This document shows, piece by piece, positions 13,367-38,288 of a stretch of 64,000 bases of DNA; position 1 is the stretch's first letter; each line of letters opens with the position of its first letter. The position numbers and the translations under genes were made by a program. The notes beneath the pieces are model-generated. The model was not told the origin of the DNA. It saw nothing but the letters and a program-made list of their open reading frames with translations, and did not search any database. This DNA comes from Patescibacteria group bacterium (lineage in GTDB: Bacteria; Patescibacteriota; UBA1384; JBAYJO01). The stretch lies in NCBI GenBank assembly GCA_041665085.1, contig JBAYJO010000003.1, positions 2,131 to 66,130 on the forward strand, read 5' to 3'.

Positions 13367-13491
13367 TTATTATATTATAACTTATTTGGAACTTAAGCTA
13401 AATGGTCCTAATGGATAAAATCATAATGATATTTTAGAATTAATGAAATATTATAGGGTTGTAATAAAAGAAATTGAAAGGGGGTGATAAT

Positions 13492-13842: not shown

Positions 13843-13850
13843 TATGGCAA

Positions 13851-13878
13851 GTCCGTCTACCGGGGATGATAGACGGAC
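13851..13878. terminator. Perfect 9-bp stem hairpin (gtccgtcta…tagacggac) at the left edge of the GC-rich island, between convergent genes.
   Basis: Inverted repeat read directly; sits between the YeaQ stop (13842) and the island-gene stop (13879). Confidence 0.5.
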
Positions 13879-15093
13879 CTAGAATTTGAGGGTTGGGTGG
13901 GTGATTGTGATAATCTCCGGTTTAGGAGAGCTTTTCCTGTTCTTAGGAGGTCGTATCTTGTCGTTCGGAGAAGTTCCAATTGCATCCCGATCCAGTATCT
14001 GATGCTGTCTGATCTTAGTATCCTGTATTGAGACTAAGCGTGCTCCTTTCTTGGAAACTGTGATATTTCGGAAGTTGTTGGTTGCGTATTCTCTGTAGGA
14101 CATGCCATTATACATGGATCCAAGATCAAGTGTGGGATGAGGTACTGCTAGATCATAACACATTGAACCTCGAGAATGGTTCTCTTTGTTGGGCGGAACA
14201 TGGCATTGACAAAGTTCATAGCTTGGGCAAACCAAAGCGCAGTGCCTTTCGGCTGCTAAAGCGCTTGTTTTGGGTCGCCATTGACAGAGTCCGTTTCCAA
14301 TATGCCATGCACCTTGGTTGGAGTCGTAGCAGGACAATCCTGCATTATGGCAAGCAAGCGATAGATCTTCCGATAAGTCTTCGCTTATACCGTCTCTTTT
14401 GTCATAAGTGAAGCTTTTGATCATACCAAATTGGTAGACCAACCTCATGATCCAGATATCCACACAATAGAACGGTATTTGACGGAAGAATTCCCACTCC
14501 CTATCGTTGCCTTTCCATTGGATATCTTGAAGCCAGAGCAAGATTAGTTGAGCGATCTTGTGCTTCATCCCAACAGGTTTATCACGATGCTTGCCAGCGA
14601 GCGTCATTACCTTGATCAATCGGTCTCTGTTTTCCATCGGACTCTGATCAAGATTGAGATTCCGAAGAATCAAAATCCTAGGATCACCATCGTATTTCTC
14701 AAGGAGCTTAAGAGTGTTTCGCCACCAGTTGATTCTCTTTGGATCAGTGTGAGCAAAGGGAATGATTGGGGTTAGAATTCTCCGCAGCTCGTCTTGATAA
14801 CTCTCTGCCAGTCCAGTTGCAGGATTGAGTACTTCAGGGTGATCCAGACATACTGTGCTGCATTGGCTGATAGCTTTTTCAGCTGTTTTGCCAGATCTGT
14901 TGTTCCAGCCGACAAAGAAGAGATACATGGCATGCATTAGGCTGCCATATTCTATTTCTTTGGGTTGATGGCGAATTTCCGGGGGGTGCATATTGGCAAA
15001 ACCATAAGTACGGTTTTCCCATGCATCTGCCCAGCTTTTGCATACAACTGCTGCAGTATCGCAGTCAAACTCGTACTTTTTGATTCTGGCCAC
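13879..15093 (-). CDS. Hypothetical Cys-rich protein of the GC-rich island. There is a possible HhH-like 'FYCVDIWIMRLVYQFGMI' segment. Function unknown.
   Basis: Long ORF at ~48% GC. Likely GTG start at 15093, which lies 9 nt after GAAAGGAGG; the track gives TTG at 15129. Antisense ORFs over it are composition artefacts. Confidence 0.55.
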   Translation of the reverse strand: MARIKKYEFDCDTAAVVCKSWADAWENRTYGFANMHPPEIRHQPKEIEYGSLMHAMYLFFVGWNNRSGKTAEKAISQCSTVCLDHPEVLNPATGLAESYQDELRRILTPIIPFAHTDPKRINWWRNTLKLLEKYDGDPRILILRNLNLDQSPMENRDRLIKVMTLAGKHRDKPVGMKHKIAQLILLWLQDIQWKGNDREWEFFRQIPFYCVDIWIMRLVYQFGMIKSFTYDKRDGISEDLSEDLSLACHNAGLSCYDSNQGAWHIGNGLCQWRPKTSALAAERHCALVCPSYELCQCHVPPNKENHSRGSMCYDLAVPHPTLDLGSMYNGMSYREYATNNFRNITVSKKGARLVSIQDTKIRQHQILDRDAIGTSPNDKIRPPKNRKSSPKPEIITITHPTLKF

Positions 15094-15213
15094 TTGTGGC
15101 ACCCTCCTTTCAGATTGATCAGAATTCAAAAGAGAGCGTTCCTTGCTCCCTCATTTTCAATATAGATTATTTGTAAAAATAAGGCAAATGCAAAGGGGCA
15201 GCTATATTTCAAG

Positions 15214-16518
15214 CTACCCCGAGTTAGTCTGGCCTGTGCCAGCCAATACTGCTGGTTGTGATTCTTCAGCAGTCAGTTCGTCGATAGCGTCAAGTAGACG
15301 CCGAGTTTGTCGAGTCAGTCGTTTGACTTTCTTAGGATCAAGACTGATCAGGTGTCGCGCGAGTTTGGCTAGATGTGGTAGACCAATTCCCTCGAGACTA
15401 TTGATTACCATTTGGACTTGGCCAAGACATGAGTCAAGATGATCTAGTACTTTACCAAGTCTCTTACGGTTTTCAGGGTCGGTCATAGGTGAATCAGCTG
15501 TTGATAATAGGTGTTGTTCGCAGAGCCACTTCATTCCTTCGAATGTTAGTATAATGCCCTGCAAGCCATCGCCTGTCAAGCTCTTGATAGCATTGCGAAA
15601 TGCCTTTTCAGTATCAGCTTGGACAGAATAATCCATTGCTGCAGCTAAGTCCATTTGGACTAGACTGGCGATTCTTTCAGTGATGCGTCTGCGGTACTTT
15701 GGAATCGACAATCGTGGCCCTTGGCTTATGACATAACGCAATTCAGTTTCTAGCGTTTTTTCGCCGAACTTATGATCTGCCAATCGAGCCATCTCTATGG
15801 CAAAACCATACTTCATCTTGCTGTTTTCAACAGCTTTGCGCAAACGATCCGGCAAGCCGCAGAACTTGATCATGCGACTGACTTTGTTAGGGGAGCAACC
15901 AAGTTCTTTGGCCAATTTGGCATACGAGAATTGCGCATCTCTCTTGCGGTACATCTTAAGCATTGATTCGACAAAGTATGCCTCCTCATGTGCCGGTACT
16001 GTACCGTGGATGTTTTCGGAGACTTGAATGCATCTGGCGTAGAAAGGATCAGGATTGACATAGATGTCGCACCACCTGATTGCGCTTTTTGGAAACTGTA
16101 TCTCAAAGCAGTGGCATTCAGATGATTCTTCTCCATCAACCTTGCAACGCGAGCATCCTTTTTCACGGAGTTCGATCATTGCTCGAATTCTACATTCTCC
16201 TGCGATCAAGACATAGTATTTGCCTTTTCGCGCGTAGGATTTGTAGTCATCAAACTCGAGGGTTGCTCCATGAAGGTCTGCCGAGAAAAGCAAATACTCG
16301 ATGAACTTTGCTTTGCTGGTAAAAACAGCCAGCTTAATGTTGGTCAAAAGTCCCATTCGGCCGATATTCTCAGCCAAGTCAGTGATCTTGAGGGGATCAA
16401 AGGTGTGCCTTTCCTGTGGTAAGATAATCACATCTTCGATCGGGATTTCTCGACTTCGCATGAGCGATTCGAACTGTAGTCTCTCAACAACATTGTTTTC
16501 TGGTCCAGACTTTGTCAT
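15214..16518 (-). CDS. ParB/Srx-like nuclease-domain protein with an HTH domain.
   Basis: 'YVLIAGECRIRAM' resembles the ParB 'LIAGERRxRA' box. HTH 'SYAKLAKELGCSPNKVSRMIKF'. ATG at 16518 is preceded by AAAGGGGGTGA. GC ~50%. Confidence 0.65.
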   Translation of the reverse strand: MTKSGPENNVVERLQFESLMRSREIPIEDVIILPQERHTFDPLKITDLAENIGRMGLLTNIKLAVFTSKAKFIEYLLFSADLHGATLEFDDYKSYARKGKYYVLIAGECRIRAMIELREKGCSRCKVDGEESSECHCFEIQFPKSAIRWCDIYVNPDPFYARCIQVSENIHGTVPAHEEAYFVESMLKMYRKRDAQFSYAKLAKELGCSPNKVSRMIKFCGLPDRLRKAVENSKMKYGFAIEMARLADHKFGEKTLETELRYVISQGPRLSIPKYRRRITERIASLVQMDLAAAMDYSVQADTEKAFRNAIKSLTGDGLQGIILTFEGMKWLCEQHLLSTADSPMTDPENRKRLGKVLDHLDSCLGQVQMVINSLEGIGLPHLAKLARHLISLDPKKVKRLTRQTRRLLDAIDELTAEESQPAVLAGTGQTNSG

Positions 16519-16609
16519 TTCATCACCCCCTTTTGTCCAGACTAATTTAATCATTAAAATAAATACGAGACTTGTCAAATGGTACATGTTAATAAATATG
16601 TGGAAAAGT

Positions 16610-16648
16610 ATATATTAAAAAGGTTAAGGCAGGCGCAAGCGCCTGCCT
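16610..16648 (-). terminator. Rho-independent terminator downstream of purA (minus strand).
   Basis: Perfect hairpin 'aggcaggcgc aa gcgcctgcct', followed on the minus strand by TTAACCTTTTTAATATA. Confidence 0.7.
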
Positions 16649-16680
16649 AATAAGTCAATATTCAGTTTTGGGTCAATCCG

Positions 16681-17952
16681 CTATTTGCGGAGGATGATCT
16701 TGTCTCGATGAGCACCGTTGGTCACGATGACGATCGGAACTCCGAGAAGCTGCTCGATGTGATCGATGTAGCTGCGTGCTGCTTCGGGAAGTTCATCCAT
16801 GCTTGTTGCTCCTGTGATGTCTTCCTTCCAGCCGGGTAATGTCTCGTATTCTGGTTCGACTTTGCCTAGCAGATCCGTGGTCGGGTAGCTGGCAAGGATC
16901 GAATCCCGGTACTTGTAAGCGATGCAGATCTTGATCTCATCAAGCTGACTCAAGATATCAAGCTTGGTCATGATGAGACTGGTGAATCCGCCAACCATCA
17001 TAGCGTACTTGAGCGCTACGATATCGAGCCATCCGCATCTTCGTTTCCTGCCGGTAGTAGCGCCGTACTCGTTGCCAGATGTTCGGAGTTGTTCGCCGAT
17101 CTGGTCTCGCAATTCGGTGGGAAAAGGACCAGCACCAACAGCAGTGGTGTATGCTTTCATAACTCCGTAGATCTCGATGATTTCGAGCGGTGAAATTCCG
17201 GCTCCTGCAATAATACCAGCAGGGCTAGGGCAGGAGCTGGTAACGAATGGATAGGCACCTTCATTGAGATCCCGCATAAGGCCAAGTTGTCCTTCGAGCA
17301 AGATCTGCTTGCTGCCAGATACTGCAGTGTGGATCAGCTCAATTGGATTCATGACATGTGGAGCAATGAATCGACATGCTCCTTCAATCTCATCCATGAT
17401 CTGACTCAAGCTAAGCCCACTGTGACCATAGAGCGAGAGTCGATCATTGATCCATTCAAGTTCTTGGCTTATGTGGTTGCTAAATTGCCCAAGGTCAAGG
17501 ACCTCCTCGACTCGGAATCCGCTCCTGTTTGCCTTGTCGGCATAGCACCACGCAATGCCTTGATGGGTCGATCCAATCTCTTTGCCATTGCCCATGCGCC
17601 GCTTTTCATCTAGCATGTCGAAAAGGACGTGATAGGGCATGACGAGATGGGCAAGTGGGGAAATGATGAGCTTGCTGGTGTTGATTCCTACTTTCTGCAA
17701 CTCTCTGATTTCAGTTTCAACACCAACCGGATTGACGACGCAACCATTTCCGATGATGCAGGTGGTCTCGGGGTTGAATATCCCAGATGGGATAGCATGC
17801 AATTTGAAGACTCGGCCGTCGCGTTCAACAGTGTGGCCGGCATTGGCTCCACCTTGACCACGAATAACCATATCAGCTTCAGTGGCAAGATAATCAACCA
17901 CTTTGCCTTTGCCTTCATCTCCCCATTGTGTTCCGGCTACGATATCGACCAT
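16681..17952 (-). CDS. purA: Adenylosuccinate synthetase.
   Basis: 'VAGTQWGDEGKGK', 'GGANAGHTV', 'GTTGRKRRCGWLD' canonical motifs. Start at the internal 'MVDIVAG…'; the track ORF extends 25 codons upstream. GC ~52%, atypical for this window. Confidence 0.9.
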   Translation of the reverse strand: MVDIVAGTQWGDEGKGKVVDYLATEADMVIRGQGGANAGHTVERDGRVFKLHAIPSGIFNPETTCIIGNGCVVNPVGVETEIRELQKVGINTSKLIISPLAHLVMPYHVLFDMLDEKRRMGNGKEIGSTHQGIAWCYADKANRSGFRVEEVLDLGQFSNHISQELEWINDRLSLYGHSGLSLSQIMDEIEGACRFIAPHVMNPIELIHTAVSGSKQILLEGQLGLMRDLNEGAYPFVTSSCPSPAGIIAGAGISPLEIIEIYGVMKAYTTAVGAGPFPTELRDQIGEQLRTSGNEYGATTGRKRRCGWLDIVALKYAMMVGGFTSLIMTKLDILSQLDEIKICIAYKYRDSILASYPTTDLLGKVEPEYETLPGWKEDITGATSMDELPEAARSYIDHIEQLLGVPIVIVTNGAHRDKIILRK

Positions 17953-18087
17953 AGTAGAATTATCCTCTCTTGTGAAGTAGTGTAAGGCAATCGGTTGCTT
18001 ATCTTCACAACCATAAGAATAGTACAATTTAATAAATAAAAAATCAATCTATTTTAAAAAATATTTTAGAACTGTGTCAATTATTGT

Positions 18088-20303: not shown

Positions 20304-21080
20304 ATGGAAGAAAAATTTAAAAGGTTAAAAACCTTGAATGCGTGGGCGTGTTTGCTTCATTTGGTCTCGGGAATATTAATGGTAGCGTTATCAACTAACC
20401 TAGAAGTGCCTATTACGGCCTCTTTTTTGCATTTTGACAGATTTAGTCAGACTCTGGTTCCGCAGATGGAAACATTATTTTCAATTAAACTTGGACTACT
20501 TGTAGCATCATTTTTGTTTATGTCTTCAATCGCTCATTTTTTAATTGCTTTTCCACTTAATAGTTGGTACAACAAAAACCTTAAGAATAATATAAATATT
20601 GCAAGATGGATTGAATATGCTTTTTCGTCATCTGTTATGATGGTTGTTATTTCATTTTTAGTTGGTATGAGCGATATTGCAACTTTAATTGTAATATTTT
20701 TTCTAAATGCAATGATGATACTTTTTGGATGGATGATGGAGCTTCATAACCAAACCCTTCGACAGTGTTCGGAACAGGCCGAAAAGGTAAACTGGACAGC
20801 ATACATTTTTGGTTGTATTGCTGGAATTGGTCCATGGATTGCTGTTGCGATATATTTAGCAAGTCCGGGAGTAGCTGATAATCCACCAACTTTTGTGTAT
20901 TGGATTTTCTTTTCAATTTTTATTTTCTTTAACATTTTTGCTGTAAACCAGATACTTCAATATAAAAAATTCGGTAAATGGAATGATTATCTTTATGGAG
21001 AAAAAGTATATATTATTTTAAGTTTTGTGGCAAAATCGCTTCTTGCGTGGCAAGTTTTTGCTGGTACACTAAGACCATAG
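20304..21080 (+). CDS. Heliorhodopsin (7-TM retinal protein, inverted topology).
   Basis: Full-length similarity to characterised heliorhodopsin 48C12: 'RWIEYAFSSSVM', 'FGWMMELHN', 'FGCIAGIGPWIAV', 'KFGKWNDYLYGEKVYIILSFVAKSLLAWQVFAGTL'. TM7 has the Schiff-base Lys in 'SFVAKS' and TM3 the counterion Glu in 'WIEY'. Confidence 0.9.
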   Translation: MEEKFKRLKTLNAWACLLHLVSGILMVALSTNLEVPITASFLHFDRFSQTLVPQMETLFSIKLGLLVASFLFMSSIAHFLIAFPLNSWYNKNLKNNINIARWIEYAFSSSVMMVVISFLVGMSDIATLIVIFFLNAMMILFGWMMELHNQTLRQCSEQAEKVNWTAYIFGCIAGIGPWIAVAIYLASPGVADNPPTFVYWIFFSIFIFFNIFAVNQILQYKKFGKWNDYLYGEKVYIILSFVAKSLLAWQVFAGTLRP

Positions 21081-23304: not shown

Positions 23305-23346
23305 TATAGTATAAGGTAAAATTATCACCGAAAGGAGGTGAGAAAT

Positions 23347-27588: not shown

Positions 27589-28354
27589 GGGGACGCTTCA
27601 CTTTCACTCAATGCTTTAGCGATAACTTAAATTTTGGTATAGTATAGTTATGCCACGACAACCAAGATTTCTTCCACCGGACAACTACTATCATATAATG
27701 AACCGCGGTAATAACGGCCAGCAGATTTTTACTTGTGATGAAGATTATCAATATTACCTCGACAAATTATTAGAACTTAAATATGAACATCCATTTAATC
27801 TCTCTCACTATTGTCTGATGCCTACTCATGTTCATTTTTTACTAAAAATAATCAAAGAAACTGATTTTTCCATCTTTTCAAAACGGTTGAACTTAAGTTA
27901 CGCTATTTATTTTAAAAGAAACTATGGCTCTATAGGCCATTTCTGGCAGGGTAGGTTTAAAAGCCAGTTAATAAGCAATGATATCTATCTTATGCAGTGC
28001 GGAAAATATATTGAATTAAATCCAGTCAGAGCAGACATGATAACAATGCCAGAAGACTATTCCTGGTCAAGCTATCAATATTATGCCTTTGGTAAAAAGA
28101 ACAGTTTGATTACCGAAGATATTTTTTACAATGAATTTGGAAATGATCAAAAAGAAAGGCAAAAAAATTATTCCCAATTTATGATTGATGAGGCTATTGC
28201 GACTACGATGAGTAGTAAGAAGCTAGCTATCGGAGCTAAAGATTTCGTGTATAATATAAATAGAAAAAATAAATACCACTTAGAAAATAAAGATGCTTCC
28301 TACCATTCAAAAAATACTTATCGCTAAAGTATTGAGTGAAAGTGAAGCGTCCCC
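27589..28354 (+). mobile_element. REP-associated tyrosine transposase (RAYT)/IS200-like element bounded by 33-bp perfect inverted repeats.
   Basis: Left inverted repeat 27589-27621 'ggggacgcttcactttcactcaatgctttagcg' and right inverted repeat 28322-28354 (its exact reverse complement). Short tandem repeats (tagcttt)x3 and (ccccgaaag)x2 lie just outside. Confidence 0.75.
27650..28327 (+). CDS. Y1 HUH tyrosine transposase (RAYT / TnpA-REP family).
   Basis: 'YHIMNRGNNGQQIF…HYCLMPTHVHFLLK…' has the HxH (HVH) motif, and there is a downstream Tyr region ('YSWSSYQYY'). Confidence 0.75.
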   Translation: MPRQPRFLPPDNYYHIMNRGNNGQQIFTCDEDYQYYLDKLLELKYEHPFNLSHYCLMPTHVHFLLKIIKETDFSIFSKRLNLSYAIYFKRNYGSIGHFWQGRFKSQLISNDIYLMQCGKYIELNPVRADMITMPEDYSWSSYQYYAFGKKNSLITEDIFYNEFGNDQKERQKNYSQFMIDEAIATTMSSKKLAIGAKDFVYNINRKNKYHLENKDASYHSKNTYR

Positions 28355-30626: not shown

Positions 30627-30811
30627 TTTTTTTGAATATTTAATTTGCTGAGTTTTAACTGTAGTTTTTTTATGATAAAATATTAGTTAGTTAAGATAGA
30701 AGATTTGTTATTAAATTTGGGTTGAAAATTGTTATTTAACATAAGAATTTTTTTCAATAAATAATCTTTTATTAGAAAACATAGCTCAAATAATATTAAA
30801 TGGAGGGGAAA

Positions 30812-32272
30812 ATGAATGATTCAAACCAACCCAAGAAGAAATTGGTTATATTTATTGTAATTCTTATTCTAATTATCGCGGGGATAGTTGTAAGTGGCTA
30901 TTGTCTGTATTGTTCTATAACCAAAACCAGTACCAACTTTGATACTAGTTCTATTTCTAGCATCGATGAGATGGCTTCATCGTGGCCGAAAAGTGATTCG
31001 CCTTGGCCGATGTTTCATGGCAACTATAATCATACCGGATTTGTTAATGTTTCAGGACCGGCTACTAATCAATTAAAATGGAAATATTTAATCGGGGCAA
31101 CTGCGGGTAATTTTCCTAACAGTGTGATTGTTGCTAAGGATGGAATCATATTTGTGGCTGGCAATAATAAGATAACGGCTTTAAATACCGATGGTTCTTT
31201 AAGGTGGGTTAAGGATTATAATTCAACGCAAGGTCCGTCTTTGTCTGCAGATGGAAAAACCTTATATTTTGTTTCTATGTCTTCGATCATTGCTACTTCC
31301 TCGCTTGACGGCAGTAAAATTTGGGAATTTAAAGCAGATGGTAATATGGTTTTTGGTCCGACGATCGGACCGGACGGGGTGATCTATCAGGGTTCTTGGG
31401 ATAAATATTTTTATGCCATTAATCCCGACGGCACACTCAAATGGAAATATTTGACCAAGGGCACAATCTCATATCCATCAAGTATTGATAAAAACGGTAA
31501 TATTTATCTTGGCGGCGGCGATGCTCACTTTGGTCCGGACGGCAATATTTACGCTTTTGACAAAGATGGCAAATTGCTTTGGACTTATGATACGAAAATG
31601 CTGCGAGTCGGTTCTCCTGCTATCGGTTACGATGGTTTGCTCTATTTCCCGGCCTCACCGGATTTGTTTGTATTGAATGTAAAAGGAGAACTGGTTTGGA
31701 AAAAAGGACCGGAAGCGGTTGTGACAGCGGCTCCAGAAAGTGAAGCTTCGAACGTCACGCCTGTTGGAACGACAAGCGAACCACAAAGCGGGGCACCGGC
31801 AACAGATTGTCCTCCGCCACCAGCACCTTGCGGTAATGTTCCCAGTGAAGCCGATGGAGGTGCGCAAGGAGGACCGTCGGGCATGGAAATTGAAGCTGGT
31901 GTGGAAGTAATTGCCGGTATTATTTCACCGGCCTTAACACCGGAAGGACTGATTTATATCGGTAACCCGCAAGGCAAATTAATGGCTATTGATTCAAAGA
32001 CTCAAGAAATTAAATGGTCATATCAAACCGGTAAAAATCCGGATCCAAAAGGCATTGATTTTGGTCTGCCAAGTTTTATTATTACAGATAAAGATGGAAC
32101 AGCTTATCTGGGTGCGTTTGATCATAAATTTTATGCTATTAGTAAAGACGGTAAAGAGAAATGGAGTTATGAAACGGGCGACAAGATTACCGAAGCGGCT
32201 CCTGCCATTGGCGCTGATGGCACAATTTATTTTACTTCGGAAGACGGATATGTTTATGCGATAGGGAAATAA
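30812..32272 (+). CDS. PQQ-like beta-propeller repeat protein (BamB-like) with a TM anchor and an internal Pro/Gly-rich GC-rich insertion.
   Basis: Repeated '…DG..YF.S.DG.LYA…G...W.Y.T' blades. The insertion at ~31715-31900 encodes 'TAAPESEASNVTPVGTTSEPQSGAPATDCPPPPAPCGNVP…'. Start follows RBS GGAGGGGA. Confidence 0.7.
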   Translation: MNDSNQPKKKLVIFIVILILIIAGIVVSGYCLYCSITKTSTNFDTSSISSIDEMASSWPKSDSPWPMFHGNYNHTGFVNVSGPATNQLKWKYLIGATAGNFPNSVIVAKDGIIFVAGNNKITALNTDGSLRWVKDYNSTQGPSLSADGKTLYFVSMSSIIATSSLDGSKIWEFKADGNMVFGPTIGPDGVIYQGSWDKYFYAINPDGTLKWKYLTKGTISYPSSIDKNGNIYLGGGDAHFGPDGNIYAFDKDGKLLWTYDTKMLRVGSPAIGYDGLLYFPASPDLFVLNVKGELVWKKGPEAVVTAAPESEASNVTPVGTTSEPQSGAPATDCPPPPAPCGNVPSEADGGAQGGPSGMEIEAGVEVIAGIISPALTPEGLIYIGNPQGKLMAIDSKTQEIKWSYQTGKNPDPKGIDFGLPSFIITDKDGTAYLGAFDHKFYAISKDGKEKWSYETGDKITEAAPAIGADGTIYFTSEDGYVYAIGK

Positions 32273-37011: not shown

Positions 37012-37620
37012 ATGGAATTATTTAGTGGAGAATCATTAACGAATTTAGTTAGAACTGCTGGCTATTTAGGACTTTTTGCGATTATTTTTGCTGAGTCGGG
37101 ACTGTTTATCGGTTTTTTCTTGCCGGGGGATAGTTTGCTGTTTACAGCCGGTTTATTAGCTTCTCAAGGTATTCTTAATATTTATTGGTTGATATTAGTA
37201 TTATTTGTTGCTGCTGTTACTGGCGATAATGTTGGATACACTTTTGGTCGTCGAGTAGGCCATAGGATATTTAAAAGAGAGGATTCTCTTCTTTTTCATA
37301 AAAATAATTTAATTAGAGCGGAGAATTTTTATAAACAGTATGGTTCCATGACAATAATTATTGCCAGATTTATTCCAATTGTTAGAACGTTTGCTCCAAT
37401 TGTTGCAGGCGTTGGAAAAATGGAGTATAAAAGATTTTTTACTTATAATCTGATTGGTGGGTTTCTGTGGACTATCGTGATGACTTTGTCGGGATTTATC
37501 TTGGTGAAAATATTTCCAAATATTGAACATAATCTTTCACTAGTGGTGTTAATAATTATTATAGTTTCGGTTATACAACCGGCTTATCATATTATTAAAG
37601 AGAGATCAAAAAAGAGTTAG
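37012..37620 (+). CDS. DedA/SNARE-associated family membrane protein.
   Basis: 'FLPGDSLLFTAG…VTGDNVGYTFGRRVG' DedA signature. Confidence 0.85.
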   Translation: MELFSGESLTNLVRTAGYLGLFAIIFAESGLFIGFFLPGDSLLFTAGLLASQGILNIYWLILVLFVAAVTGDNVGYTFGRRVGHRIFKREDSLLFHKNNLIRAENFYKQYGSMTIIIARFIPIVRTFAPIVAGVGKMEYKRFFTYNLIGGFLWTIVMTLSGFILVKIFPNIEHNLSLVVLIIIIVSVIQPAYHIIKERSKKS

Positions 37621-38288
37621 AACTTTTTGTTTTTAAGTTCATTTAATGCGTTTGCAGCAATCCATTTTGCGGCTTTGTTTTCTTTAGGTTGTATTTTTTT
37701 AGCCAGCTCTATTGCTTCTATATTTAATTTTTTATTTCTCTTACCAATTTGTCTTAAGGCCCAATTTACTGCTTTTTTAACAAAATTTCTCTCATCAGTT
37801 GAATATTTTTCTATCAGTGGAAAAAATGAAGTATATACTTTATCTTCAGCTTTTTTGTTATGAACTGCTAGCCAAGCAACCATCACAAAACCTGCTCGTC
37901 TAGTATATTCTTTTTCAGATAGTATATACTCTTTAATTTTTTTGTAAGCAAATGGAGTTTTGTCGAACAGTGAACCACAGACACTATCGCAAATATCCCA
38001 TGAATTAAAACTATTTACCCATTCATCCATTTGATTTTCTGTTACATTTTTTGGATCCTCAATAAATGCTGCAATCATTCGTGCTTCATGGATTTCGCTA
38101 TTCCAAAGTTCCATTGCTAGCTCGTGATTATTTGTTGTGGATTTTTTGATTTCTTTTGCCATTTGTCTAAGAATTGGCATAGAAACTCCATAGGTATTTT
38201 TAGTGTTTATTCCAAATCTAGCCATTCCTGCAATATTTTTCTCATTTTTTAAAGATTTTATTTTTGTAATTATATCTTCTTTTTTCAT
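37617..38288 (-). CDS. DNA alkylation repair enzyme (AlkD/AlkC-like HEAT-repeat glycosylase).
   Basis: '…ARFGINTKNTYGVSMPILRQMAKEIKK…ELWNSEIHEARMIAAFIEDP…' matches the AlkD-family pattern. Confidence 0.7.
   Translation of the reverse strand: MKKEDIITKIKSLKNEKNIAGMARFGINTKNTYGVSMPILRQMAKEIKKSTTNNHELAMELWNSEIHEARMIAAFIEDPKNVTENQMDEWVNSFNSWDICDSVCGSLFDKTPFAYKKIKEYILSEKEYTRRAGFVMVAWLAVHNKKAEDKVYTSFFPLIEKYSTDERNFVKKAVNWALRQIGKRNKKLNIEAIELAKKIQPKENKAAKWIAANALNELKNKKF

What the first reader, a model, noticed from the sequence alone, without database searches (positions are those of the whole stretch)
13851..18030. GC-rich (~50%) three-gene island containing purA, a ParB-like protein and a Cys-rich unknown
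GC content jumps by ~18 points over exactly three co-oriented genes and drops back at both ends. A perfect hairpin marks the left edge. The genes encode a canonical adenylosuccinate synthetase, a ParB/Srx-fold protein with an HTH, and a 404-aa Cys-rich protein with no obvious family. This pattern indicates recent horizontal acquisition. ParB-like proteins occur in DNA-modification or defence modules and mobile elements. PurA paralogs (PurZ) are used by phages for Z-base DNA, although here the PurA motifs look canonical. An identical RBS (AAAGGGGGTGA) on an island gene and the native neighbour is curious.
Basis: partly seen in the sequence, partly recalled or inferred. Interest (0 to 1): 0.6.

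Follow-up and report, generated by a model that had tools for sequence, protein, structure and literature searches.

The report
ParB-like partner with EndoIII-like glycosylase, plus PurA
The GC-rich stretch is real, but it is two things side by side: an ordinary adenylosuccinate synthase gene, and a conserved, undescribed gene pair from ultra-small (CPR) bacteria that couples a ParB-type DNA-binding protein to an iron-sulfur DNA-glycosylase-like enzyme.

Summary
The composition anomaly is confirmed. The three minus-strand genes have GC3 of 0.46, 0.46 and 0.54, against 0.25 ± 0.05 (max 0.35) for the other 50 ORFs. It is not one recent island.

- **purA (16681..17952).** It is canonical: it passes the NCBIfam PurA cut-offs and fails PurZ. 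It has its own promoter-like site and terminator. It is absent from the same locus in a syntenic relative. No homolog exceeds 55% identity.
- **The other two genes.** They form a conserved pair, found adjacent in 9 diverged loci in four different arrangements. The named members are Patescibacteria and Berkelbacteria.
- **The "Cys-rich unknown".** It belongs to an undescribed HhH-GPD family close to AGOG and endonuclease III. The AF2 model has pLDDT 83, and all top-20 PDB fold hits are HhH-GPD enzymes. The helix-hairpin-helix Lys, the catalytic Asp and three Cys are kept in 59-60 of 60 members. The four Cys align with the EndoIII [4Fe-4S] ligands.
- **Its partner.** It is a divergent ParB/Noc-type protein with the NTP-pocket boxes and a ParB-like HTH.

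The hairpin is the pair's terminator, and the shared RBS is just a strong Shine-Dalgarno sequence. My best reading is a ParB-assisted base-excision module, comparable to DpdA/DpdB and 5mYOX/ParB. The substrate is unknown.

The parts
13848..13881 (-). Intrinsic-terminator-like hairpin after the glycosylase-like gene, in the gap between convergent genes.
   Evidence: 14-pair stem, -21.2 kcal/mol, z -6.07, 0 of 200 shuffles fold as well. A hairpin with a related stem (AAGTCCGCC...GGCGGACTT) lies at the same place in L001.
13879..15129 (-). The maximal ORF is 416 aa; NCBI aa (MFA6423128.1); the conserved core starts at the Met at 14991. Key codons: Lys 14557-14559, Asp 14458-14460, Cys 14284-14286, 14239-14241, 14227-14229 and 14209-14211.
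   Evidence: - Family of 152 representatives at E<1e-3.
- AF2 model pLDDT 83.
- Foldseek top-20 PDB hits are all HhH-GPD.
- The best BFVD hit is a viral EndoIII, TMt 0.67.
- hhalign to E. coli Nth aligns K120/D138 and the four Cys.
- Distant members hit Pfam AGOG, HhH-GPD and Q_salvage.
15159..15194 (-). Two overlapping promoter-like sites upstream of the glycosylase-like gene.
   Evidence: Consensus scan, 9 of 12 matches each. Weak evidence only.
15195..15220 (-). Hairpin overlapping the stop codon of the ParB-like gene. It may be a partial terminator or attenuator between the two genes of the pair.
   Evidence: 9-pair stem, -17.8 kcal/mol, z -3.7.
15214..16518 (-). Divergent ParB/Noc-type protein of 434 aa (MFA6423129.1). 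It has an N-terminal ParB/Srx NTP-binding fold (LPQERHTF box I, AGECRIRA box II, SENIH box III), a Cys-rich insert (GCSRC...C.C), a ParB-type HTH and a helical C-terminal domain.
   Evidence: - PDB profile hits to Spo0J, ParB and Noc at 1.4e-9 to 4e-5, with all three boxes aligned.
- HTH_ParB 8.7e-4; TIGR00180 2.2e-6, below its cut-off; PHROG ParB-like 5.5e-8.
- Q36, R38, G108, R111, Q166 and N170 are invariant in 8 orthologs.
16523..16533 (-). Shine-Dalgarno AAAGGGGGTGA of the ParB-like gene.
   Evidence: The same 11-mer precedes the native 122-aa gene at 13477. It matches the SD consensus AAAGGAGGTGA with one change.
16550..16578 (-). Promoter-like site (TTGACA-17-AATGAT) for the pair.
   Evidence: 10 of 12 matches.
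16627..16648 (-). Intrinsic terminator of purA (GGCAGGCGC-TT-GCGCCTGCC followed by a T-run).
   Evidence: -19.9 kcal/mol, z -4.6.
16681..17952 (-). purA, a canonical adenylosuccinate synthase of 423 aa (MFA6423130.1). It is a separate transcription unit and is not part of the conserved pair.
   Evidence: - Pfam PF00709 1.2e-158.
- NCBIfam PurA equivalogs: 493 bits against a 402 cut-off, and 456 against 396. PurZ: 110 against 300.
- PDB PurA hits down to 5.7e-114.
- Absent from the syntenic locus L001.
18051..18080 (-). Promoter-like site (TTGACA-18-TAAAAT) upstream of purA.
   Evidence: 11 of 12 matches.

Best explanation
The region holds two independent units.

**Unit 1: purA.** purA (16681..17952) is an ordinary adenylosuccinate synthase (IMP + Asp + GTP -> adenylosuccinate). 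It is of foreign composition and has its own promoter-like site and terminator. It most likely serves purine interconversion or salvage in a CPR cell.

**Unit 2: a two-gene DNA base-excision module (13879..16518), apparently typical of CPR bacteria.**

*Shown:*
- The downstream protein has the HhH-GPD glycosylase fold.
- It has an invariant helix-hairpin-helix Lys and an invariant Asp at the positions of EndoIII K120 and D138.
- It has a four-Cys motif that aligns with the EndoIII [4Fe-4S] ligands.
- The upstream protein is a ParB/Noc-type protein that keeps the NTP-pocket boxes and a ParB-like HTH.
- The two genes stay adjacent through co-oriented, swapped, divergent and convergent arrangements in diverged genomes.

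*Inferred:*
- The glycosylase flips out a damaged or modified base and excises it, probably as a bifunctional glycosylase/beta-lyase acting through the Lys.
- The ParB-like protein is its dedicated DNA-loading, targeting or activating partner. It would act as an NTP-gated DNA clamp that holds the enzyme on duplex DNA or opens the duplex for it.
- Experimental precedents for this kind of partnership are DpdB for the transglycosylase DpdA and phage ParB176 for the thymine dioxygenase 5mYOX176.

I favour a housekeeping repair or genome-maintenance role over defence, because the neighbours are housekeeping genes and no mobile-element or defence genes are nearby. The substrate is unknown.

**Origin.** Both units entered this low-GC lineage by horizontal transfer, the pair probably from a CPR lineage of about 45-50% GC. 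They came in separate events, and the pair's arrival was not recent.
For: **Composition.** GC3 z-scores are 4.0-5.5.

**Two units.**
- L001 has the pair but no purA at the syntenic locus.
- There are separate promoter-like sites and terminators.

**PurA identity.**

**Glycosylase fold.**
- AF2 model pLDDT 83, pTM 0.78.
- The Foldseek PDB top 20 are all HhH-GPD: Qng1/DUF2419, NTHL1, OGG1, AGOG, MjOgg, MutY. Probabilities reach 1.00.
- The BFVD top hit is an EndoIII: E 0.02, TMt 0.67, rmsd 4.3 Å.
- hhalign against E. coli Nth gives E 1e-4, with K120<->K145, D138<->D178 and C187/194/197/203<->C236/251/255/261.
- In 60 members, K145, D178, C251 and C255 are kept 60/60 and C261 59/60. C236 is Cys in 51 and His in 7.
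- Of 89 distant family members, the only recurrent Pfam hit is AGOG (9 members, best E 9e-7). HhH-GPD (2) and Q_salvage (1) belong to the same superfamily. The other two hits, Thymidylate_kin and PAH, were single.

**ParB-like.** Spo0J, ParB and Noc hit at 1.4e-9 with boxes I-III aligned. Box residues are invariant.

**Linkage.** A ParB-like gene is adjacent in:
- the window, L001, L003, L087 and L108 (upstream, co-oriented);
- L110 (downstream, co-oriented);
- L088 and L102 (divergent);
- L109 (convergent).

**Context.**
- Neighbours are housekeeping genes: UvrABC, LigA-GatCAB, BacA, MurB, BipA.
- There are no phage, plasmid or viral-contig relatives and no PADLOC hit.
- Named members are Patescibacteria and Candidatus Berkelbacteria.

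**Precedents.** DpdB ATPase is required for DpdA base exchange (PMC10164549). ParB176 is required for 5mYOX176 activity on dsDNA (PMC13229309).
Against: - Sequence-level links to known glycosylases are weak:
  - no Pfam or NCBIfam hit for the window protein;
  - Foldseek E-values are only 0.02-1;
  - hhalign probability is 57% against Nth alone, and falls to 9% (HhH-Asp core only) when Nth is merged with a MutY-like sequence.
- The Cys spacing (C-x14-C-x3-C-x5-C) differs from the EndoIII C-x6-C-x2-C-x5-C.
- The best PDB fold hit is Qng1, a nucleotide hydrolase rather than a DNA enzyme. One distant member is fused to thymidylate kinase. A nucleotide substrate is therefore not excluded.
- One long-family locus (L112) and the ~280-aa subfamily lack a ParB-like neighbour.
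- The GERR box reads GECR here, so CTP binding is unproven.
- In the 5mYOX system, mutations in the NTP pocket did not abolish function.
- No parS-like site was found.
- GC3 stays high in both relatives although orthologs have diverged far enough to saturate synonymous sites. Simple ancient transfer followed by amelioration does not explain that.
- There is no activity, complex or expression data.
Confidence: 0.55

Rival explanations
1. Anti-phage or anti-foreign-DNA module. The glycosylase excises modified bases typical of phage DNA (as Brig1-type glycosylases do). The ParB-like protein acts as the DNA sensor or loader.
For: - ParB/Srx-fold proteins recur in defence and modification systems such as DndB, SspE and DpdB.
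- The composition is foreign and the ParB-like partner evolves fast: 43% identity against 70-80% for flanking core proteins.
- The glycosylase gene is duplicated in tandem in L087.
- The locus picks up different GC-rich genes in two relatives.
Against: - No PADLOC hit for either protein.
- Neighbours in 10 loci are housekeeping genes, not defence islands.
- There is no cognate modification or immunity gene.
- The pair keeps a stable chromosomal position between relatives.
- No relatives in phages, plasmids or IMG/VR.
Confidence: 0.17
2. DNA modification or base-exchange system analogous to DpdA/DpdB. The HhH-GPD protein removes or exchanges a specific base at sites chosen by the ParB-like HTH, giving an epigenetic mark or its erasure.
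For: - The ParB-like NTPase plus base-flipping enzyme architecture has two experimental precedents.
- The ParB-like protein here keeps an HTH, so it could be sequence-specific.
- The best PDB fold hit is the 7-deazaguanine-nucleotide hydrolase Qng1.
Against: - No biosynthesis genes for a modified base, and no restriction partner, lie nearby.
- No PADLOC Dpd match.
- The HhH-GPD fold with Lys/Asp is typical of excision, not exchange.
- Qng1 scores no better than OGG1 or NTHL1.
Confidence: 0.1
3. Nucleotide-salvage reading. The HhH-GPD-like protein hydrolyses a free (modified) nucleotide as Qng1 does. The ParB/Srx-fold protein is a small-molecule NTP-dependent enzyme or regulator. Both would cooperate with PurA in purine salvage, so the three genes form one metabolic island.
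For: - Top PDB fold hits are Qng1/DUF2419.
- One distant member hits Pfam Q_salvage and another is fused to thymidylate kinase.
- Some loci have nucleotide-metabolism neighbours: Pribosyltran and PfkB in L110, nucleoside deoxyribosyltransferase in L112.
- purA is adjacent here.
Against: - purA is adjacent in only 1 of 11 loci and is transcriptionally separate.
- The protein keeps the HhH DNA-binding motif and an EndoIII-like Fe-S cluster loop, both DNA-contacting elements.
- The partner's best matches are DNA-binding Spo0J and Noc, including their HTH.
Confidence: 0.08
4. One reading: a single, recently acquired three-gene island, possibly linked to phage-type Z-base (PurZ) chemistry or carried by a mobile element.
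For: The composition is atypical over exactly these three genes. PHROG 1211 ('2-aminooxy adenylosuccinate synthetase') matches PurA at 5e-111, but that only reflects PurA/PurZ homology.
Against: - The PurZ model scores 110 against a 300 cut-off, while the PurA equivalogs pass.
- The pair is present without purA in the syntenic relative.
- No donor exceeds 55% identity for PurA.
- No integrase, tRNA or direct repeats at the edges.
- No phage, plasmid or viral relatives.
Confidence: 0.04

Closest known systems
Endonuclease III (Nth) and AGOG: HhH-GPD bifunctional DNA glycosylase/lyases
   Same: - Predicted two-domain helical HhH-GPD fold.
- A GxGxK helix-hairpin-helix, followed by a (P)VD-x-[WH]-x-x-R motif carrying the catalytic Asp.
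- The Lys sits at the position of the Nth K120 nucleophile.
- A C-terminal four-Cys motif aligns with the Nth [4Fe-4S] ligands.
- Distant members reach Pfam AGOG at 9e-7.
   Different: - No library model is passed.
- There is a ~13-residue insert between the HhH and the Asp, and extra conserved motifs (PPE, YxGDPRNIF).
- The first Cys spacing is x14, not x6, and the second is x3, not x2.
- AGOG has no Fe-S cluster.
- The protein is about 100-150 aa longer than Nth.
- It is encoded with an obligate-looking ParB-like neighbour.
- The substrate is unknown.
DpdA/DpdB of the Dpd 7-deazaguanine DNA modification system (PMC10164549)
   Same: A DNA base-flipping N-glycosidic-bond enzyme is encoded next to a ParB/Srx-fold NTPase with a helical C-terminal domain. 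In Dpd the partner's ATPase is required for the base reaction on DNA.
   Different: - The enzyme here is HhH-GPD, not a TGT fold.
- The partner has a GExR box and a ParB HTH, rather than DGQQR and an SspE-like C-domain.
- There is no PADLOC Dpd hit.
- No preQ0 genes or restriction components are nearby.
Phage 5mYOX thymine dioxygenase with its ParB activator (PMC13229309)
   Same: A ParB homolog is repurposed as the cognate activator of a DNA base-modifying enzyme and is needed specifically on dsDNA. The pairs are specific to each other.
   Different: - That ParB lacks a DNA-binding domain, whereas this one keeps the HTH.
- The enzyme there is an Fe/2OG dioxygenase and the context is phage. 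Here the context is chromosomal CPR, with no viral relatives.
Chromosomal ParB/Spo0J, Noc and KorB CTPase clamps
   Same: The N-terminal boxes I-III and the HTH align with Spo0J, ParB and Noc structures (6SDK, 1VZ0, 4UMK, 7OL9) at 1e-9 to 6e-7.
   Different: - It falls below the TIGR00180 and Pfam cut-offs.
- It has GECR instead of GERR, plus a Cys-rich insert.
- The helical C-terminal half is unrelated.
- There is no adjacent ParA, and no parS-like palindrome was found.
PurA (adenylosuccinate synthase) versus phage PurZ
   Same: It is full-length PurA and passes two NCBIfam equivalog cut-offs. The GDEGKGK P-loop, GHT and TTGR-RR-GW motifs are present.
   Different: - It is not PurZ (110 against a 300-bit cut-off).
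- It belongs to a large PurA sub-clade with EGQLG in place of E. coli EGAQG (97 of its 120 best homologs).
- It sits on a long branch next to Armatimonadota-type sequences.
- It is compositionally foreign in its host.

Membership tests
HhH-GPD DNA glycosylase superfamily | Helix-hairpin-helix (GxGxK/x) followed by a Gly/Pro-rich stretch and an invariant catalytic Asp | tested here: met
   The family motif is F-x-G-[IV]-G-x-K-I-A-Q-L ... P-V-D-x-[WH]-x-x-R. G141, K145 and D178 are kept 60/60. They align with Nth G116-K120 and D138.
HhH-GPD DNA glycosylase superfamily | Two-domain all-helical fold shared by Nth, MutY, OGG, AGOG and AlkA | tested here: met
   The AF2 model has pLDDT 83. The top 20 Foldseek PDB hits are all HhH-GPD proteins, with probability up to 1.00 and TMt up to 0.60. 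The viral EndoIII hit has TMt 0.67. E-values are weak (0.02-3).
HhH-GPD DNA glycosylase superfamily | Passes the Pfam PF00730 (or AGOG PF09171) gathering score | tested here: not met
   - No hit for the window protein.
- 3 of 60 close members hit at E<=0.049.
- 9 of 89 distant members hit AGOG (best 9e-7) and 2 hit HhH-GPD.
Endonuclease III (Nth) family | [4Fe-4S] cluster loop C-x6-C-x2-C-x5-C at the C-terminus | tested here: inconclusive
   The four Cys align one-to-one with Nth C187/194/197/203 and are conserved. The spacing is C-x14-C-x3-C-x5-C, however, and the first ligand is His in 7 of 60 members. Metal content is not testable here.
Endonuclease III (Nth) family | Orthology to Nth (NCBIfam or PDB sequence-level match) | tested here: not met
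   No NCBIfam hit. PDB profile searches give no hit, or EndoIII at E about 1.
HhH-GPD DNA glycosylase superfamily | N-glycosidic bond cleavage on DNA (with or without AP-lyase activity) | not testable with these tools
   Needs enzyme assays.
ParB/Srx superfamily, ParB-CTPase type | N-terminal domain with box I (QPR-like), box II (GxxRxxA) and box III (ENxxR-like) | tested here: met
   LPQERHTF, AGECRIRA and SENIH align with Spo0J QPRKHF, AGERRFRA and ENLQRE in 6SDK. Q36, R38, G108, R111 and N170 are invariant in 8 orthologs. The first Arg of GERR is Cys here.
ParB/Srx superfamily, ParB-CTPase type | ParB-type HTH DNA-binding domain | tested here: inconclusive
   - PF17762 scores 19.8 bits against a 22.6 cut-off in the window protein.
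- The L087 ortholog scores 23.0 and passes.
- The PDB profile alignment covers the HTH of Spo0J and Noc.
Canonical chromosome/plasmid partition ParB | Passes TIGR00180, has an adjacent ParA, and has parS sites | tested here: not met
   - TIGR00180 scores 27.6 against 58.45.
- No ParA neighbour in any of 9 loci.
- No shared palindrome in or near the loci.
ParB/Srx superfamily, ParB-CTPase type | CTP (NTP) binding and hydrolysis with clamp closure | not testable with these tools
   The single-sequence AF2 model was unusable (pLDDT 38). Biochemistry is needed.
PurA (adenylosuccinate synthase) | Passes the equivalog cut-offs and carries the catalytic motifs | tested here: met
   NF002223 scores 493.2 against 402, and TIGR00184 scores 455.8 against 395.55. 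The GDEGKGK, NAGHT and TTGRxRRxGW motifs are present.
PurZ (phage succino-amino-deoxyadenylate synthase) | Passes NF038379 | tested here: not met
   109.7 bits against a cut-off of 300.
Recently acquired genomic island | Atypical composition | tested here: met
   GC3 z-scores of 4.0-5.5.
Recently acquired genomic island | Absent from close relatives, near-identical donor or copies elsewhere, and mobility genes, tRNA or flanking repeats at the edges | tested here: not met
   - The pair is present at the syntenic locus of L001; only purA is absent.
- Best foreign identities are 55% (PurA) and 38% (glycosylase-like).
- The nearest tRNA is 25 kb away.
- No flanking repeats and no integrase nearby.
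Dpd system (DpdA/DpdB) and other known defence systems | Match to PADLOC models | tested here: not met
   No hit at E<=0.01 for any of the three proteins.

The most novel reading that the evidence does not exclude
CPR bacteria carry a previously unrecognised class of base-excision machinery. In it, a ParB-family NTP-gated DNA clamp with its own HTH loads, targets or activates a dedicated [4Fe-4S] HhH-GPD glycosylase/lyase. This would be the first ParB-dependent DNA glycosylase. It would extend the emerging rule that ParB-fold NTPases serve as accessory 'DNA openers' for base-flipping enzymes from modification enzymes (DpdA, 5mYOX) to excision enzymes.
Probability: 0.4. Interest if true: 0.75.

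Novelty: new variant of a known kind. Interest (0 to 1): 0.58.

Why it matters
- **New ParB partnership.** ParB-fold CTPases were long seen only as chromosome-segregation clamps. Two recent experimental systems show them assisting DNA base-modifying enzymes. A conserved ParB-like/glycosylase pair would add base excision to that list. It would also give a tractable two-protein system for asking what the ParB fold does for base-flipping enzymes: loading, duplex opening, or site choice through the retained HTH.
- **Annotation of CPR dark matter.** It gives a fold and catalytic residues to a family now annotated only as 'hypothetical protein' in Patescibacteria and Berkelbacteria, organisms with minimal repair repertoires.
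- **The original question.** The result is sobering. The PurA gene is ordinary. The 'island' is a composite of at least two old transfers at a locus that also gained a different GC-rich gene in a relative.

Tried and rejected
**Searches that found nothing**
- PDB sequence search with the 3-sequence profile of the Cys-rich protein: no hit. The 60-sequence profile gave only E about 1 to EndoIII and OGG.
- Word-indexed homolog search for the ParB-like protein: self only. Orthologs had to be collected from neighbouring ORFs.
- parS-like site search (perfect palindromes with 7-nt arms, shared between 8 loci): nothing shared.
- Direct or inverted repeats flanking the island: only short chance-level matches.
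- Phage, plasmid and IMG/VR searches for both pair proteins: no relatives.
- PADLOC: no hits.
- Literature searches for a ParB/HhH-GPD or ParB/EndoIII pairing: no papers.

- The 60-sequence alignment was too diverse for the search for related loci. An 11-sequence subset worked.
The single-sequence run gave pLDDT 38 and was discarded without a fold search.
- The first NJ script timed out. A lighter version ran.

**A weaker control**
- hhalign against a merged Nth plus MutY-like alignment kept only the HhH-Asp core, at 9% probability.

**Readings rejected**
- PurZ or Z-base chemistry.
- A single recent three-gene island.
- The hairpin as an attachment site or island edge.
- The shared RBS as a sign of common regulation.
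- High expression as the cause of the GC shift: GC3 is far above that of all other genes in the window, including the pilus, tRNA-synthetase and Uvr genes.

Full report
**1. The observation**

The window averages about 0.34 GC. The four 1-kb bins from 14 to 18 kb read 0.450, 0.454, 0.452 and 0.499. At 200-nt resolution the right edge is sharp: 0.48 falls to 0.33 and then 0.26 across 17.9-18.2 kb. There is an internal dip to 0.37 in the spacer at 16.4-16.7 kb.

Three co-oriented minus-strand ORFs fill the stretch. Per gene:

| Gene | GC | GC3 | z(GC3) |
|---|---|---|---|
| Glycosylase-like (13879..14991 core) | 0.452 | 0.466 | 4.1 |
| ParB-like | 0.459 | 0.459 | 4.0 |
| purA | 0.505 | 0.536 | 5.5 |
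| Other 50 ORFs >=120 aa | 0.341 ± 0.034 (max 0.421) | 0.253 ± 0.052 (max 0.348) | – |

GC2 hardly changes, so the anomaly lies in codon choice rather than amino-acid content. The total-GC step is 11-16 points rather than 18. The stretch is also heterogeneous, because purA is distinctly richer than the other two genes.

**2. Host and surroundings**

NCBI holds the same proteins as MFA6423128-30 from a "Patescibacteria group bacterium" MAG. The first two are annotated "hypothetical protein".

The window is ordinary CPR chromosome:
- uvrC, uvrA and uvrB, a polysaccharide deacetylase and an ABC exporter;
- a heliorhodopsin, BipA and an AlkD-type repair protein;
- type IV pilus genes and IleRS;
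- four tRNAs 25 kb or more away.

 No integrase, tRNA or flanking repeat marks the GC-rich stretch.

**3. purA**

- The 423-aa product matches Pfam Adenylsucc_synt end to end (1.2e-158).
- It passes two NCBIfam PurA equivalog cut-offs (493.2 against 402; 455.8 against 395.55).
- It scores 109.7 against the 300-bit cut-off of the PurZ model.
- It aligns with solved PurA structures down to 5.7e-114, with the GDEGKGK, NAGHT and TTGRxRRxGW motifs intact.
- In an alignment with 14 homologs and an E. coli PurA sequence, the classic catalytic positions are invariant.
- One deviation is EGQLG where E. coli has EGAQG. This variant is shared by 97 of the 120 best homologs, so it marks a large PurA sub-clade and not a change of function.

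On origin:
- Apart from itself, the best homolog among 5.8 billion proteins is 55% identical.
- Named relatives are Armatimonadota (52%), Anaerolineae (47-49%) and Alicyclobacillus (46%). No other Patescibacteria sequence is in the top 120.
- GTDB species representatives reach only 42-47%.
- In a neighbour-joining tree it sits on a long branch beside a 15-member clade that contains the Armatimonadota sequence.

So purA looks foreign to CPR, but no recent donor exists in the data.

purA has its own promoter-like site (TTGACA-18-TAAAAT, 11 of 12 matches). It also has a strong intrinsic terminator (GGCAGGCGC/GCGCCTGCC plus a T-run; -19.9 kcal/mol, z -4.6).

**4. The stretch is not one island**

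The Cys-rich protein has only three hits in the word-indexed search: itself, P0002 (62%) and P0003 (38%).

P0002 lies on a 212-kb contig (L001) that is syntenic with the window on one side: a small Transgly_assoc-type membrane protein, the deacetylase, UvrB and UvrA. Amino-acid identities between L001 and the window:

| Protein | Identity |
|---|---|
| UvrA | 80% |
| UvrB | 75% |
| BipA | 70% |
| Deacetylase | 69% |
| Glycosylase-like | 62% |
| ParB-like | 43% |

L001 has the ParB-like and Cys-rich genes in the same place and orientation. The next gene is BipA, not purA. The pair was therefore in place before these two lineages split, or was replaced in place. purA is a separate gain or loss.

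L001 in turn has an extra GC-rich 166-aa ORF on the other side of the small membrane-protein gene, where the window has only a short intergenic gap. This locus therefore collects foreign genes.

The pair is also GC3-elevated in L001 (0.37-0.40 against about 0.29) and in the L003/L108 lineage. It is compositionally native in L087, L088, L102 and L109 (GC 0.40-0.57). The likely source is therefore a CPR-type lineage of about 45-50% GC. Berkelbacteria loci carrying the pair have GC 0.50.

One point I cannot explain. GC3 is still far above background in both relatives, although their orthologs have diverged enough to saturate synonymous sites.

**5. The Cys-rich protein**

*Family size and conservation.*
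- An exhaustive profile search of 1.84 billion cluster representatives found 152 proteins at E<1e-3 and 58 at E<1e-30.
- A 60-member alignment shows F-x-G-[IV]-G-x-K-I-A-Q-L, then P-V-D-x-[WH]-x-x-R, then C...C-x3-C-P-x4-C.
- Numbering from the Met at 14991: G141, K145, D178, C251 and C255 are kept in 60 of 60 members, and C261 in 59 of 60. C236 is Cys in 51 members and His in 7.

*Fold.*
- AlphaFold2 with this alignment gives a confident model: pLDDT 83, pTM 0.78, with 266 residues at 90 or above.
- Against the PDB, the 20 best Foldseek hits are all HhH-GPD superfamily enzymes: Qng1/DUF2419, NTHL1, OGG1, AGOG, MjOgg, SsOgg and MutY. Probabilities reach 1.00, but E-values are only 0.1-3.
- Against viral models, the single clear hit is an endonuclease III: E 0.02, TMt 0.67, rmsd 4.3 Å.

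*Sequence-level links.*
- A profile-profile comparison was run with E. coli Nth, whose sequence I checked as identical to 2ABK. It gives E 1e-4 and 57% probability.
- That alignment places K145 on the K120 nucleophile and D178 on D138. It places the four Cys on the [4Fe-4S] ligands C187, C194, C197 and C203.
- A diluted control, Nth merged with a MutY-like sequence, retains only the HhH-Asp core at 9% probability.
- Among 89 more distant family members, the only recurrent Pfam hit is AGOG (9 members, best 9e-7). HhH-GPD (2) and Q_salvage (1) belong to the same superfamily. Thymidylate_kin and PAH each hit once.

I conclude, at about 0.8, that this is an undescribed HhH-GPD family combining an AGOG/Nth-like active site with an Nth-like Fe-S loop of altered spacing. 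No library model covers it.

**6. The ParB-like protein**

- A three-sequence profile hits Spo0J, ParB and Noc structures at 1.4e-9 to 4e-5.
- The alignment covers box I (LPQERHTF against QPRKHF), box II (AGECRIRA against AGERRFRA), box III (SENIH against ENLQRE) and the HTH.
- Library scores are sub-threshold: HTH_ParB 19.8 against 22.6, and TIGR00180 27.6 against 58.45. PHROG ParB-like families match at 5.5e-8.
- Across eight orthologs, Q36, R38, G108, R111, Q166 and N170 are invariant. These are the residues that line the nucleotide pocket in ParB.
- The closer orthologs carry a Cys-rich insert (GCSxC...C.C), and all have a helical C-terminal half of unknown relationship.
- The true start is the ATG at 16518, preceded by the SD AAAGGGGGTGA. 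This gives the 434-aa NCBI product.

**7. The two genes are linked**

I built HMMs of both families and scanned every ORF in the loci recovered from metagenomes. A ParB-like gene lies directly next to the glycosylase-like gene in nine loci:

| Arrangement | Loci |
|---|---|
| ParB-like upstream, co-oriented | window, L001, L003, L087, L108 |
| ParB-like downstream, co-oriented | L110 (Berkelbacteria) |
| Divergent | L088, L102 |
| Convergent | L109 |

L087 has two tandem glycosylase copies.

Two exceptions:
- L112, a long-family member next to BipA, has no ParB-like gene within 6 kb.
- A ~280-aa subfamily has variable neighbours.

Adjacency that survives four gene arrangements and deep sequence divergence (ParB-like identities of 20-42%) is good evidence of a functional link.

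The surrounding genes are housekeeping ones: UvrBA, LigA-GatCAB, BacA, MurB, phosphoketolase, BipA and thioredoxin-like genes. They are not defence or mobile-element genes. Neither protein has relatives in 50,697 phage records, 72,556 plasmids or IMG/VR.

**8. The small features**

- The "perfect hairpin" (13848-13881) folds at -21.2 kcal/mol on the minus-strand transcript (z -6.1). It lies just after the stop codon of the glycosylase-like gene.
- L001 has a hairpin at the same position with a related stem. It is therefore the module's terminator, sitting between convergent genes, and not an island boundary element.
- A weaker hairpin overlaps the ParB-like stop codon (-17.8 kcal/mol).
- AAAGGGGGTGA is one change away from the SD consensus AAAGGAGGTGA, which also occurs at 23331. 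Three matches at up to one mismatch are reached by 4 of 100 shuffles.

**9. Mechanism and comparison with known systems**

*Shown:* fold, conserved catalytic-type residues, a Cys motif, ParB boxes and HTH, and conserved adjacency.

*Inferred:*
- The HhH-GPD protein excises a base from DNA, probably with lyase chemistry through K145.
- The ParB-like protein acts as its NTP-gated loader, targeting factor or activator.

Two experimental systems give precedent:
- DpdB, a ParB-fold ATPase, is required for the DNA transglycosylase DpdA to exchange guanine for preQ0 (PMC10164549).
- Phage ParB176 is required for the thymine dioxygenase 5mYOX176 specifically on duplex DNA. The authors of that study suggest a KorB-like clamp that keeps the enzyme on DNA (PMC13229309).

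Literature searches found no description of a ParB/HhH-GPD pairing.

I rank the readings as follows:

| Reading | Confidence |
|---|---|
| Housekeeping repair or maintenance | 0.55 |
| Defence against modified foreign DNA | 0.17 |
| Dpd-like modification or erasure system | 0.10 |
| Nucleotide salvage | 0.08 |
| The original single recent PurZ-flavoured island | 0.04 |

The nucleotide-salvage reading was prompted by three things: the Qng1 fold hits, a thymidylate-kinase fusion in a distant member, and nucleotide-metabolism neighbours in L110 and L112.

**10. Verdict**

The finding as written, a GC-rich purA island, is largely ordinary. It is a canonical purA of old foreign origin beside another old foreign insertion.

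They are a conserved, CPR-associated pair of a ParB-family protein and a new Fe-S HhH-GPD glycosylase-like family. This is a new variant of the emerging "ParB-fold partner plus base-flipping enzyme" theme. Everything beyond fold, motifs and linkage remains inference.

Noticed in passing
window 20304..21080 (+): A heliorhodopsin gene (Pfam PF18761, 1.1e-96, full length) lies 2 kb from the GC-rich stretch in this Patescibacteria chromosome. Its composition is native (GC3 0.27).
   Followed up: no
L001 11731-12231 (-), compared with the window gap 13367-13473: The syntenic relative has an extra GC-rich 166-aa ORF (GC 0.46, GC3 0.43, no Pfam hit) between the small membrane-protein gene and the deacetylase, where the window has only a short spacer. 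The same locus therefore gained different GC-rich genes in two relatives (purA here).
   Followed up: partly
window 13879..16518 and L001 8534-11107: GC3 of the pair stays well above background in both relatives (0.46 against 0.25, and 0.37-0.40 against about 0.29). Flanking orthologs are only 63-80% identical in protein, so synonymous sites should be saturated. Simple ancient transfer followed by amelioration does not account for this.
   Followed up: partly
protein P0199 (481 aa; distant family member): This is a fusion of an N-terminal thymidylate kinase (PF02223, 2.3e-20) with the HhH-GPD-like domain. It hints that some branches of the family may act on nucleotides.
   Followed up: no
L087 5830-6828 and 6863-7876: Two tandem copies of the glycosylase-like gene follow a single ParB-like gene (family-profile E 8e-109 and 8e-108).
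   Followed up: no
L003 2715-3539 and L108 3192-5264: In one lineage the pair is followed directly by NAD-dependent DNA ligase LigA and then GatC, GatA and GatB. The window and L001 copies lie 2.5 kb from uvrB-uvrA. These may be repair-gene neighbourhoods or plain shared synteny.
   Followed up: partly
L084 4028-7145: The nearest PurA homolog (55% identity) also sits in a three-gene GC3-rich stretch (0.50-0.54) next to genes with GC3 0.28-0.38. That PurA may be island-borne in another low-GC genome.
   Followed up: no
window 27650..28327 (+): An IS200-like Y1 transposase (PF01797, 2e-12), 10 kb from the stretch. No link to the stretch was seen.
   Followed up: no
window 37617..38288 (-): An AlkD-type DNA alkylation repair protein (PF08713, 1.3e-40). 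Together with uvrABC, this shows that the genome keeps several conventional repair genes.
   Followed up: no
window 30800..32272 (+): A PQQ/BamB-like beta-propeller protein has the highest GC (0.42) among the native genes, but its GC3 is only 0.34. This shows what a non-foreign GC-rich gene looks like in this genome.
   Followed up: partly
window 15214..16518, residues ~122-140 of the ParB-like protein: A Cys-rich insert (GCSRCKVDGEESSECHC) lies between box II and box III. It is present in the closer orthologs (window, L001, L003, L087) and absent in L088 and L102. It may be a zinc-binding element.
   Followed up: no
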